Source: Gammaproteobacteria bacterium (GTDB lineage: Bacteria > Pseudomonadota > Gammaproteobacteria > Eutrophobiales > Eutrophobiaceae). From it: DNA of 64,000 nt. Below are positions 62,040 through 64,000 of this stretch, piece by piece (the stretch's first letter is position 1; every line of letters begins with the position of its first letter). The notes beneath the pieces were generated by a model. That model searched no databases, had not been told where the DNA came from, and saw nothing but the letters and a program-made list of their open reading frames with translations. A program made the position numbers and the translations under genes. The DNA lies in assembly GCA_965222155.1 (NCBI GenBank), contig CBDCTH010000012.1, positions 384,001 to 448,000 of the forward strand, in the 5' to 3' direction.

Positions 62040-62240
62040 CTATGTGGTTTCAAATTCCAGAGAGGACCATTTGATGCTGGAGGAACGCTTGGAAAGATTC
62101 AACATCTCTACGCCTACGAGTTCGTTGGCTTCATTGTAGTCGAGAACAACTCCTGGCGAGACCTCTTCTGATTCGACAATTTTTGAATCATCCAGACGCA
62201 GGTAGAGTGCGTCAGCTTCTTTATCAACGTGCAGTTTCAT
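62040..62240 (-). CDS. DUF2283-family putative antitoxin (duplicate)
   Basis: Protein identical to 51748..51948. Confidence 0.85.
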   Translation of the reverse strand: MKLHVDKEADALYLRLDDSKIVESEEVSPGVVLDYNEANELVGVEMLNLSKRSSSIKWSSLEFETT

Positions 62241-62392
62241 AATTTTTCTCGCTTGCTTCGGTCAAAGAATACACTTACCACCCGCCAGGGTGCAACTCGG
62301 GTGTTTACTGCTACCCGTAAGGTGCGATCACCATTTTCGGGGATGCGACGGAAAAATCGCTCTACAAACGGATCGTTCGGGTCCGGTGAAAG
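62237..62392 (-). pseudogene. DUF4258-family putative toxin, 5'-truncated
   Basis: PDPNDPFVERFFRRIPENGDRTLRVAVNTRVAPWRVVSVFFDRS; N-terminus replaced by an IS-end-like sequence. Confidence 0.7.
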
Positions 62393-62508
62393 GGGGTTTA
62401 AGGAGAAATAACAGGCATAAATGGCACATAAACTGAACTGGAACAAATAGTCAGGCAGGTCCGACCCTATCCTGCAAAATATCCTTATATGCCAGGTGTA
62501 GCCTCCTG

Positions 62509-62802
62509 TCAGGCTACTTCAAGTTTTTCGAAATCGTCGAGGTTGATCTTCTGCCGCGCTTCCCATAAATCATAGTTATCCTGCATTGACAACCAGCTTT
62601 CCGGGGACCTGCCGATGACTTTGGACAGCTTGAGCGCCATAGTCGGCGTGATGCTGCTCTTGGCGTTGAGAATCCGGCTGATCACGGATTCACTGACTCG
62701 TAACCTCTCAGCCAGTTCTTTCGCGCCGATGTTAAAGGGTTCCAGGTAGACCCGTTTGATAAACACTCCCGGATGCATGGGATTATGTTGCTCGATACTC
62801 AT
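62509..62802 (-). CDS. higA: HigA/VapI antitoxin (duplicate)
   Basis: Protein identical to 52217..52510. Confidence 0.92.
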   Translation of the reverse strand: MSIEQHNPMHPGVFIKRVYLEPFNIGAKELAERLRVSESVISRILNAKSSITPTMALKLSKVIGRSPESWLSMQDNYDLWEARQKINLDDFEKLEVA

Positions 62803-63080
62803 TAGTGATAATCCTCATAATCTACGGCATAGGCGTCGCTGTCCATGAACTCGAATATGATCCGCCAGTTGCCGCTTACGTTAATTGCCCACTGCCCTCT
62901 CTTATCACCCTTGAGTGGGTGCATGCGCCAACCGGGTATATTCATATCCTCGATTGTGAACGCAGTATGCAAGGCCTGTAACCGTTCCTCAATTCGCGCT
63001 TTATGGGTTGACTGAATACCGGCCGTGCTACCCGTGGTGAAGAATTTCTCTAATCCCTTATGCTTAAAGCTCCTGATCAT
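62802..63080 (-). CDS. higB: HigB toxin (duplicate)
   Basis: Protein identical to 52510..52788. Confidence 0.92.
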   Translation of the reverse strand: MIRSFKHKGLEKFFTTGSTAGIQSTHKARIEERLQALHTAFTIEDMNIPGWRMHPLKGDKRGQWAINVSGNWRIIFEFMDSDAYAVDYEDYH

Positions 63081-63134
63081 GACGGCTTGTACTTTACACT
63101 TGCGCAAGTTGGAATTCAAGGATGAATTCGCAGT

Positions 63135-63540
63135 TAATTCGGGACACCCATAAAAAAGTTAATTCAGGACACCCATAAAATGGGGACAGGCACAAGCCTG
63201 TCTGCAGTACAGGCTCAGACCAGTCCAGCCTGACAGGAACCTACTGATAATAAAGGGAAACTGTCACAAACGACGTGCTGTCCCAGGCTTGAACTGCGAT
63301 TTTCATACGCCGAAACAGGACTTTAACCCGGATTTCTCACCAGATGATGCGATGATCGCGTAGGATCTTTGATGTGCACCTTCCATCTCTCCGGGGACGG
63401 ATTTCAAATCCGTCCCCTTATGCAGTACGGGCGCCCGGCGAAGGATATTTGGGGTCAGAGGATATTTAGGGTCAGAGTAAAAATACAGTCAGTTTGGCAA
63501 GTGGTAGTGGCTTGTTGTTGAGTATTTTTACTCTGACCCC
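63135..63540. repeat. cluster of REP-like elements
   Basis: ggacacccataaaa twice (about 63141-63180, compare 38442); palindrome 63393-63417 with flanks shared with 9155-9236; GGGTCAGAGTAAAAATA...TATTTTTACTCTGACCCC at 63469-63540. Confidence 0.85.
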
Positions 63541-63589
63541 AAACTCTCATGATCAGGGCTTTGCACACCCCGACTGCATGTAACTGAGA

Positions 63590-63845
63590 AACTCCAAGGA
63601 TGCGGGAGACCCGCATCCCCGGAGTTGGCTAACGCCCCGTTCTGGTGCACTATACGACTGCGGCAGCGGGACCGAGGACGCTTTTATTTCGGTGCCTTTT
63701 GAGCCCGACCCCAAACTGTTCCCGGTCAACGGCTTCGAACCCCGCCCTGTACCCGGCGCCGCCGAGGACGCACAGCAAAATGAACCCCTCCCGCACGGGA
63801 TGCGAGTCAGCTATCCGTTGCCCCCCGCGGCCGCATGTTGTTACA
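63590..63845 (+). ncRNA. candidate IS110 bridge RNA
   Basis: Non-coding IS110 left end with a strong 5' hairpin (63590-63626) and GACCCCAAACT (63707-63717) matching the flank at 63535-63545; boundaries are inferred. Confidence 0.5.
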
Positions 63846-63873
63846 CCATCACCACTACTACGGAGGAAGCGTT

Positions 63874-64000
63874 ATGTCACACAGTGTACACACTGATACC
63901 CTGCACGTCATCCATGCCCGCGCCGCGGGCCTTGACGTGCATAAAATGCAGATCACCGCGACCGTGCGTCTGGCGCGGCCCGGCAGCGAGGCCGAGACCC
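63874..64000 (+). CDS. IS110-family recombinase/transposase (5' part, runs off the window)
   Basis: RBS ggagg; MSHSVHTDTLHVIHARAAGLDVHKMQITATVR contains the GxDxxK first DEDD motif. Confidence 0.8.
   Translation, partial: MSHSVHTDTLHVIHARAAGLDVHKMQITATVRLARPGSEAET

What the first reader, a model, noticed from the sequence alone, without database searches (positions are those of the whole stretch)
63535..64000. IS110 element next to a REP, with a candidate bridge-RNA guide matching its own flank
Seen: an IS110 recombinase start (AGLDVHK) at 63874 is preceded by about 330 non-coding bases that begin right after a REP-like inverted repeat ending ...CTCTGACCCC-AAACT. This region holds a strong hairpin (aactcc-aa-ggatgcggg-aga-cccgcatcc-cc-ggagtt, 63590-63626) and the 11-mer GACCCCAAACT (63707-63717), identical to 63535-63545 and ending in CT. 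A small hairpin (ccg-gtcaa-cgg) follows the 11-mer. Established: IS110-group elements such as IS621 encode a bridge RNA in the left end whose target-binding loop matches the target flank; IS621 targets REP sequences with a CT core. Inference: 63707-63717 is the left target guide, the element starts at about 63544-63546, and it is programmed against this genome's GGGGTCAGAG-type REP family.
Basis: partly seen in the sequence, partly recalled or inferred. Interest (0 to 1): 0.7.

Follow-up and report, generated by a model that had tools for sequence, protein, structure and literature searches.

The report
IS110 element with bridge RNA in MITE
A foreign IS110-type insertion sequence sits inside the end of a small repeated element, and its left end encodes a guide ("bridge") RNA that matches that repeat; this is a known kind of RNA-guided mobile element with some unusual details, and this copy is probably dead.

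Summary
GACCCCAAACT occurs at 63535-45 and 63707-17 (2 matches; 0.05 expected), and an IS110-type recombinase gene starts at 63874.

The main reading holds. 63707-16 is a left target guide. In 41 insertions of 16 homologous guide types, the guide covaries with the left flank (4.17 of 7 matches against 2.38 permuted; 0 of 10000). A left donor guide, CACAGCAAA (63771-79), equals the element's right end.

Three details are wrong:
- **Core:** it is AA (63541-42), not CT. The CT is element sequence.
- **Target:** it is the terminal inverted repeat of an 83-bp MITE (52 near-full copies), not a classical REP.
- **"Small hairpin" ccg-gtcaa-cgg:** it is one strand of a long-range helix with compensatory changes.

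Right target and right donor guides are not established.

The copy is single. The recombinase has Ala where all 14 homologs have the catalytic DEDD Glu, so it is probably inactive.

This is a new member of a known kind. The guide layout may resemble the IS1111 type, although the RNA is encoded in the left end.

The parts
63461..63542 (+). 83-bp MITE (terminal inverted repeats GATATTTrGGGTCAGAGTAAAAATAC) interrupted by the IS. Its last bases ATATC lie beyond the window at extrapolated 65345-65349.
   Evidence: 52 near-full copies in the genome, of which 38 end in GACCCCAAA and most continue TATC/TATT. CTCTGACCCCAAA occurs 92 times on both strands. Uninterrupted copies were read.
63541..63542 (+). 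Core dinucleotide AA, left copy. The right copy is at extrapolated 65343-65344.
   Evidence: Left junctions always read [variable]AAAC..CATG, and right junctions always read ..CAA|[variable]. 4 of 25 distinct right junctions plus the C1 array have a non-A right after CAA. Tandem junctions read CAGCAA|ACTCTCATG. Inferred from junction comparison, not from biochemistry.
63543..64000 (+). IS110-group element. It runs off the window to extrapolated 65344 (1802 bp with one core copy; left end 331 bp, right end about 200 bp).
   Evidence: Genome sequence beyond the window; boundaries. Over extrapolated 63543-65348 (1806 bp), GC is 66.4% against 52.9% for the genome. Single copy by tblastn.
63579..63585 (+). 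Subterminal inverted repeat, left arm TGTAACT. The right arm AGTTACA is at extrapolated 65332-65338.
   Evidence: Arms change together in homologs: TGTAAC/GTTACA, TGAAAG/CTTTCA, TGAAAT/ATTTCA, TGAAAC/GTTTCA (read). Function not tested.
63590..63626 (+).
   Evidence: Present in the MFE and centroid folds. The homologous helix is 63-65% paired (helices 1-2).
63660..63834 (+). Body of the bridge RNA, closed by helix P1 (63660-67 with 63827-34).
   Evidence: P1 is 86.5% paired, and 6 of 8 pairs change on both sides (helix 3). The window copy has one A-G mismatch.
63676..63721 (+). Target-binding module. Helix P2 (63676-80 with 63717-21) encloses the U-rich strand, hairpin H1 (63690-63707) and the left target guide.
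   Evidence: P2 is 88.6% paired with 2 of 5 pairs changed on both sides; H1 is 95% paired. The paralogous relic at C12:2424804 carries a G-C to A-U double change in H1.
63681..63689 (+). CUUUUAUUU, the candidate right target guide. UAUUU is complementary to AAATA, which is the core plus the right flank.
   Evidence: Own against permuted anchored complementarity is 3.99 against 3.38 (sd 0.26); 181 of 10000 permutations reach it, with a flexible register. Tentative.
63707..63716 (+). Left target guide GACCCCAAAC. GACCCC+AA matches the flank plus core, and AC matches the element's first two bases.
   Evidence: Identical to 63535-44. Covaries with flanks: 41 insertions, 16 guide types, 0 of 10000 permutations reach the observed match. 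Positions -1/-2/-3 match in 98/98/80% of own pairings against 29/49/38% of cross pairings.
63724..63823 (+). Donor-binding module. Long-range helix P3 (63724-32 with 63815-23) encloses hairpins H3 (63748-70) and H4 (about 63785-63804) as a multiloop.
   Evidence: In P3, 6 of 9 pairs change on both sides (for example CAAC/GUUG to CGGC/GCCG). H3 is 97.7% paired with 5 of 9 two-sided changes.
63771..63779 (+). Left donor guide CACAGCAAA. It equals the last bases of the right end plus the core plus the first base of the left end.
   Evidence: Exact 9-mer at extrapolated 65337-65345. 16 of 25 left-end types have a match with at most 1 mismatch at their own right end, and the variants covary (CAGCAA, CGGCAA, CAGTAA, ATAGCAA).
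63874..64000 (+). Recombinase gene. It runs to extrapolated 65142 and encodes 422 aa.
   Evidence: Pfam PF01548 and PF02371. Residue 72 (codon GCG at extrapolated 64087-89) is Ala where 14 of 14 homologs have Glu. It aligns with the Glu of ISCro4 'cmEAT'.

Best explanation
This is the left part of an 1802-bp IS110-group insertion sequence (window 63543 to extrapolated 65344). It was acquired horizontally and is inserted in the terminal inverted repeat of an 83-bp MITE.

Its 331-bp left end encodes a bridge RNA of about 175-250 nt. The RNA has a 5' stem-loop and then two modules closed by a common helix.
- In the first module, the strand GACCCCAA(AC) (63707-16) has the sequence of the left target flank plus an AA core. 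[quoted passage not shown] It would pair with the donor (the circle junction).

Recombination between the circle junction ...CACAGC-AA-ACTCTCATG... and the target ...GACCCC-AA-ATATC... at the shared AA gives the observed junctions.

Shown here: the boundaries, the guide-flank and guide-end covariation, and the RNA helices. Inferred from IS621 and seekRNA work: the pairing strands, the strand-exchange chemistry and the circular intermediate.

This copy is probably immobile, because the DEDD glutamate is replaced by alanine. Its RNA could still be made.
For: - Boundaries and core: uninterrupted MITE copies read GACCCCAAATATC, while the window reads GACCCCAAA|CTCTCATG... and ...CACAGCAAA|TATCCGAGG. 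An empty site CCGTCTCTAAAAATGCC lies next to occupied sites in a homolog's genome.
- Tandem junctions: CAGCAA-ACTCTCATG is seen in L014/L015 and in the C1 array.
- Left target guide covariation: 41 insertions with 16 guide 7-mers give 4.17 of 7 matches, against a permuted mean of 2.38 (maximum 3.41); 0 of 10000 permutations reach it.
- Left donor guide: 16 of 25 left-end types match their own right end with at most 1 mismatch, and the variants covary.
- RNA structure: 79.1% of cells are paired against 39-44% with slid partners. The covariation score is 0.246 against 0.085-0.108, and 0 of 500 shuffles reach it.
- Same target in this genome: 4 left ends of the family all follow CCCCAAA.
- Protein: it carries both IS110 Pfam domains.
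- Weak hint of transcription: two metatranscriptome runs of one study each hold a contig lying wholly in the left end. X18 has 216 nt on 63576-63785 with 5 differences. X20 has 255 nt on 63602-63863 with 10 differences and 7 gaps. DNA in an RNA library is not excluded, and contigs show no ends.
- Inactivity: Ala72 stands against Glu in 14 of 14 homologs. It aligns with the catalytic Glu of a solved relative. Mutation of E60 abolished IS621 recombination (passage of PMC11208158). The gene is single copy.
Against: - No right target guide or right donor guide could be established. A column-wise scan found no convincing partner for the right flank or for the left-end donor side. The U-rich candidate passes only weakly, and only with a free register.
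- Beyond position -4 the guide matches natural flanks little better than chance.
- No sigma-70-like promoter was found by the simple scan, either in the left end or across a tandem right-end/left-end junction.
- No Rfam family matches at E <= 0.1.
- No direct RNA ends or protein binding are known for this family.
- The single-sequence fold is only modestly better than shuffles (z = -2.23; 6 of 200 shuffles fold as well).
- The insertions are not all independent, because several sit in copies of one repeat within one genome.
Confidence: 0.85

Rival explanations
1. IS621-like model: CT core, element start at 63544-46, left target guide followed by a local hairpin, and then a right target guide that is the reverse complement of the right flank.
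For: The 11-mer identity includes CT. IS621 uses a CT core and the order left target guide, stem-loop, right target guide (passages of PMC11208160 and PMC11208158).
Against: - The right junction has no CT; it reads CAGCAA|ATATCC.
- Empty MITE ends read AAATATC.
- After AAAC, the next base differs among homologs while the guide keeps AAACUG.
- The bases of the 'hairpin' covary with 63815-23.
- No complement of the right flank lies 3' of the guide.
Confidence: 0.04
2. The conserved left end is mainly a 5' leader of the recombinase mRNA, or a set of protein-binding DNA sites. The flank match would then reflect a sequence preference of the protein, not an RNA guide.
For: No transcript ends are known, and no promoter was found by scan. 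Several invariant blocks (CCCCG, ATG.AA) and a covarying subterminal inverted repeat look like DNA sites.
Against: - Compensatory base-pair changes occur in five helices, which argues for RNA structure.
- The guide changes together with the flank across 16 types, while the protein stays 52-77% identical.
- The same logic holds for the donor guide.
- RNA guidance is established experimentally for the family.
Confidence: 0.07
3. The 11-mer repeat is a chance or hitch-hiked duplicate of the flank with no function.
For: Only one copy of the element exists in this genome.
Against: Only 0.05 matches are expected by chance. A paralogous relic keeps the same guide. The guide covaries with flanks in other genomes.
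Confidence: 0.02

Closest known systems
IS621 (IS110 group) and its bridge RNA (Durrant et al. 2024, PMC11208160; Hiraizumi et al. 2024, PMC11208158; passages read)
   Same: - A DEDD plus Tnp_20 recombinase.
- A long non-coding left end upstream of the gene that encodes a structured RNA.
- One guide with the sequence of left flank plus core, and one with the sequence of right end plus core.
- A 2-nt core present at both junctions.
- A repeated extragenic element as the natural target.
   Different: - The core is AA, not CT.
- The recombinase is 422 aa (IS621 chain: 328 aa).
- The left target guide lies 3' of its module's hairpin, not 5'.
- The donor module is a multiloop with two hairpins.
- A 6-7-bp covarying subterminal inverted repeat is present.
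- Right guides are not identified.
- The catalytic Glu is lost in this copy.
IS1111-type elements and their seekRNA (Siddiquee et al. 2024, PMC11187229; passages read)
   Same: - Subterminal inverted repeats.
- If the U-rich strand is the top-strand guide, the order 'top-strand complement 5' of bottom-strand match' is the IS1111 order.
- A multiloop donor-binding region is reported for many IS1111.
   Different: IS1111 elements carry the RNA downstream of the gene, in a long right end. Here it lies upstream, in the left end, and the left end (331 bp) is longer than the right end (about 200 bp).
ISPpu9 / ISPpu10 of Pseudomonas putida (abstracts only) and IS4321/IS5075 (title in a reference list only)
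   Same: [quoted passage not shown]
   Different: Here the target is the terminal inverted repeat of an 83-bp MITE. No sequence comparison with those elements was made.

Membership tests
IS110 family (DEDD recombinase elements) | N-terminal DEDD/RuvC-like domain (PF01548) and C-terminal Transposase_20 domain (PF02371) | tested here: met
   PF01548 at 5.2e-17 and PF02371 at 7e-20, both above their cut-offs. PDB relatives are the ISCro4 and IS621 transposases.
IS110 family (DEDD recombinase elements) | Intact catalytic D-E-D-D residues and the conserved Ser (SG motif) | tested here: not met
   D21, D110 and D113 are present, and so is the Ser of ..NNESAGK... The Glu position is Ala72 in this copy, against Glu in 14 of 14 homologs. 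This bears on the activity of this copy, not on its ancestry.
IS110 family (DEDD recombinase elements) | Site-specific insertion without a long target duplication; a short core shared by target and circle junction | tested here: met
   AA is present at both junctions. Empty sites and tandem junctions are consistent with this.
IS110 group, as opposed to IS1111 group | Left end longer than right end, with the guide RNA encoded in the left end | tested here: met
   The left end is 331 bp and the right end about 200 bp. Both identified guides are in the left end.
IS110 group, as opposed to IS1111 group | No long subterminal inverted repeats (IS1111: 7-17 bp) | tested here: inconclusive
   A 6-7-bp inverted repeat (TGTAACT/AGTTACA) covaries in homologs. 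It is placed asymmetrically, 37 nt from the left core and 5 nt from the right core.
Bridge RNA / seekRNA | Guide with the sequence of left target plus core, covarying with the flank | tested here: met
   0 of 10000 permutations reach the observed match.
Bridge RNA / seekRNA | Guide with the sequence of left donor (right end) plus core | tested here: met
   16 of 25 left-end types match, with covarying variants.
Bridge RNA / seekRNA | [quoted passage not shown] | tested here: inconclusive
   The U-rich candidate reaches 181 of 10000 permutations with a free register. Column scans found nothing clear.
Bridge RNA / seekRNA | Conserved secondary structure with guide strands unpaired in internal loops | tested here: met
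   Five helices carry two-sided changes, and the guides lie between helices. The topology differs from IS621.
Bridge RNA / seekRNA | Expressed as a discrete RNA bound by the recombinase; promoter formed at the circle junction | not testable with these tools
   Only contigs from RNA libraries lie on the left end. The promoter scans were negative.
Rfam curated families | Match to a curated covariance model | tested here: not met
   No match at E <= 0.1 on the whole element. The window's 62500-64000 stretch gave only two chance-level hits.

The most novel reading that the evidence does not exclude
This clade of long (about 420 aa) IS110 recombinases, found here and in sponge-associated and other MAGs, uses a left-end bridge RNA wired like an IS1111 seekRNA. 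The top-strand (right target) guide lies 5' of the hairpin, the bottom-strand (left target) guide lies 3' of it, and the donor module is a multiloop. The clade also has covarying subterminal inverted repeats and an AA core. It would then be an intermediate between the two described groups. It also spawns guide-less 297-bp mini-elements that are moved in trans and pile up in tandem.
Probability: 0.35. Interest if true: 0.5.

Novelty: new member of a known kind. Interest (0 to 1): 0.35.

Why it matters
The case shows that a reader of raw sequence can find a bridge-RNA guide by its match to the flank, and it corrects that reading in detail.

For the field it adds a clade of IS110 elements with an A-rich (AA) core. 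Its mapped RNA layout differs from the IS621 model, and it targets a MITE end. This is of modest use to those cataloguing or engineering bridge recombinases.

For this genome it explains one foreign, high-GC island. It also links that island to a small family of 297-bp non-autonomous derivatives that share its ends and target.

It does not open a new question, because RNA-guided IS110 recombination has been established since 2024.

Tried and rejected
- CT core and start at 63544-46: rejected by the junctions.
- Local hairpin ccg-gtcaa-cgg: rejected in favour of long-range helix P3.
- A first idea that CGGTGCC pairs with GGCGCCG around the guide: dropped, because homologs show a local hairpin H3 there instead.
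- Right target guide in the variable triplet before UGUACC (63745-47): no consistent complementarity to right flanks. I noticed by eye that the triplet resembles the 3 nt after the invariant CCCCG of the left end in some homologs; this was not quantified.
- Column-wise search for partners of the right flank and of the donor's left-end side: nothing clear.
- Handshake-guide logic of IS621 applied to the U-rich strand: it fits some families (..UG|CGG) but not the window, L018 or L031 (read by eye).
- H4 could not be placed in common alignment columns.
- Metagenome scan: 10 loci, mostly short contigs, adding only 3-4 left junctions, which agree at positions -1 and -2.
- Search of a homolog's genome with its right end found only the 3 known copies, so I stopped collecting sites that way.
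- Promoter scans were negative.
- Rfam was negative.
- In one search, parts of the element without cover in RNA-library contigs are not evidence of anything. Depths of contigs were not used to rank regions.
- Supplementary files of the papers were not opened. The ISfinder-wide tables and structure predictions of Durrant et al. may already cover relatives of this element.
- The claim that MITE-end targeting or guide-less IS110 mini-elements are undescribed rests only on the listings. I make it only weakly.

Full report
**What is there.** The window ends inside a mobile element, so I laid the genome and read on. An ORF of 422 aa runs from 63874 to extrapolated 65142. It carries both IS110 Pfam domains. 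tblastn finds it only once in the 4.55-Mb genome. Over extrapolated 63543-65348 the element is 66.4% GC, in a genome of 52.9%. The hairpin at 63590-63626 is real.

**The flank.** The 'REP' is an 83-bp MITE (63461-63543) with about 26-nt terminal inverted repeats.
- The genome holds 52 near-full copies, and 38 end in GACCCCAAA. Of those 38, 2 continue CTCTCA and nearly all the rest continue TATC or TATT.
- CTCTGACCCCAAA occurs 92 times counting both strands.
- The whole locus is nested in a second repeat of about 170 bp, whose arms lie at 63323-71 and extrapolated 65350-97.

**Boundaries and core.**
- Uninterrupted MITE ends read GACCCCAAATATC. The window reads GACCCCAAA|CTCTCATG on the left and CACAGCAAA|TATCCGAGG on the right. 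The element therefore sits inside the MITE's inverted repeat, and the CT belongs to the element.
- I fetched 46 homologous loci (52-77% amino-acid identity, mostly MAGs). Every readable left junction is [variable]AAAC(N1-4)CATG, except L016, whose left flank is another element's right end and reads AAGC. Every right junction is ..CA(G)CAA|[variable].
- Four of 25 distinct right junctions (L008, L009, L010, L016), and the C1 array in this genome, have a non-A right after CAA.
- Tandem copies (L014/L015, and the C1 array) read CAGCAA-ACTCTCATG.
- An empty site CCGTCTCTAAAAATGCC lies beside occupied ones in one homolog's genome.
- Together these place the exchange in the first two A's. The core is AA (63541-42 and extrapolated 65343-44), and element-specific sequence runs 63543-65342. 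This is inference from junctions, not from cleavage mapping.

**Left target guide.**
- In every homolog a segment N7-AAACUG lies about 150-190 nt into the left end, and its N7 follows the flank.
- Of 47 loci examined, 43 had both features. I dropped L015 and L016 because their left flank is another element's right end.
- For the remaining 41 insertions and 16 distinct guide 7-mers, the per-guide mean is 4.17 of 7 matches. Permuted pairings give 2.38 (maximum 3.41), and 0 of 10000 reach the observed value.
- Positions -1, -2 and -3 match in 98, 98 and 80% of own pairings, against 29, 49 and 38% of cross pairings. Beyond -4 the excess is small.
- The window (6 of 7) and the L018 family (7 of 7, in copies of one repeat) are the best matched. 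Insertions within one genome are not independent; averaging per guide allows for that.

**Left donor guide.** CACAGCAAA (63771-79) equals the right end plus core plus the first base of the left end. Sixteen of 25 left-end types have a match with at most 1 mismatch at their own right end. Variants change together: CAGCAA, CGGCAA, CAGTAA, ATAGCAA. Of the nine without a match, six had a truncated or missing right end, L009 has 2 mismatches, and L034 and L037 showed none.

**RNA structure.**
- I tested a model on an alignment of 25 distinct left ends. The model was built from alifold runs and reading. It holds well: 79.1% of cells are paired against 39-44% with slid partners, the covariation score is 0.246 against 0.085-0.108, and 0 of 500 shuffles reach it.

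| Helix | Coordinates | Support |
|---|---|---|
| P1 | 63660-67 / 63827-34 | 6 of 8 pairs two-sided |
| P2 | 63676-80 / 63717-21 | 2 of 5 pairs two-sided |
| H1 | 63690-63707 | 95% paired, little variation |
| P3 | 63724-32 / 63815-23 | 6 of 9 pairs two-sided |
| H3 | 63748-70 | 5 of 9 pairs two-sided |

- A relic copy in this genome shows a G-C to A-U double change in H1.
- H4 exists in single sequences but could not be aligned.
- The left target guide lies between H1 and the 3' strand of P2. The left donor guide lies between H3 and H4, inside P3.

**What could not be settled.**
- In IS621 the order is stem, left target guide, stem-loop, right target guide. Here the only strand opposite the left target guide is CUUUUAUUU (63681-89), 5' of H1. 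Its UAUUU is complementary to AAATA, which is the core plus the right flank.
- Over 26 insertions and 14 strand types, anchored complementarity is 3.99 against 3.38 (sd 0.26). With a register free by 0-3 nt, 181 of 10000 permutations reach it. That is weak.
- Column scans gave no clear partner for the right flank or for the donor's left-end side.
- If the U-rich strand is the guide, the order is that reported for IS1111 seekRNAs, not for IS110-type ones. The multiloop donor module also recalls IS1111. So does a covarying inverted repeat: TGTAACT at 63579-85 with AGTTACA at extrapolated 65332-38.

**Activity.**
- All 14 homologs have Glu in ..ME(A/G)TG..; the window has Ala72. This residue aligns with the Glu of ISCro4 'cmEAT'.
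- Mutation of the equivalent E60 abolished IS621 recombination. This copy also differs at other positions that are otherwise conserved.
- I take this copy to be inactive, with a probability of about 0.7.

**Expression.** No promoter was found by the simple scans. Two metatranscriptome runs of one study each hold a short contig lying wholly within the left end: 63576-63785 and 63602-63863, from close relatives. This is a hint only.

**Comparison and verdict.** RNA-guided IS110 recombination is established, and bridge RNAs are predicted for most family members. This is a new member, with an AA core and a layout that may be a variant. Its IS621-derived details are not.

Noticed in passing
Genome contig C1:37617-38507; C12:1193165-1193460; C12:511913-512180; C12:69432-69479: A 297-bp non-autonomous derivative of a related element. 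It keeps about 107 bp of the left end and about 190 bp of the right end, with no recombinase gene and no guide region. It has the same donor ends (CACAGC-AA-ACTCTCATGA) and the same target (CCCC-AA). Copies: three 100%-identical units in tandem on C1, one single copy (97%), one 5'-truncated copy, and one 48-bp relic.
   Followed up: partly
Genome contig C12:2424804-2424988: An 88%-identical relic of the guide region only (equivalent to 63611-63795). It keeps GACCCCAAACTGTTCCCGGTCAACGG and carries a compensatory G-C to A-U change in hairpin H1.
   Followed up: partly
window 63323-63371 and extrapolated 65350-65397; many other genome sites (e.g. C12:1913790-1913967): A structured repeat of about 170 bp, present in dozens of copies, with conserved arms (CCCGGATTTCTCACCAG..GATGCGATGATCGCG and CGAGGGCGCATCAAGCGCAGTCTGT) and variable or nested inserts. 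The MITE and the IS lie nested in one copy. No Rfam match at E <= 0.1.
   Followed up: partly
Genome contig C12:2983031-2983447 (- strand): A second, unrelated IS110-family gene (PF01548, 54.5 bits) with an in-frame TAG. It lies just downstream of a copy of the 170-bp repeat.
   Followed up: partly
L014/L015 (one homolog genome) and L036: Full-length homologs occur as head-to-tail tandem copies that share the junction ..CATAGCAA-ACTCTCATG... This is the sequence expected of the circle junction. L036's right end is followed by another, different left-end-like sequence.
   Followed up: no
window 63387-63424: A GC-rich hairpin, GGGGACGGATTTCAAATCCGTCCCC, that is itself a dispersed repeat with dozens of exact or near-exact copies. 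It gave a chance-level Rfam hit to CC0196 (E 0.083, below gathering).
   Followed up: no
window 62040-63119 (- strand): Small ORFs just upstream look by eye like toxin-antitoxin-type genes (a 97-aa HTH-like protein and a 105-aa partner; a 66-aa ORF). They were not searched against any library.
   Followed up: no
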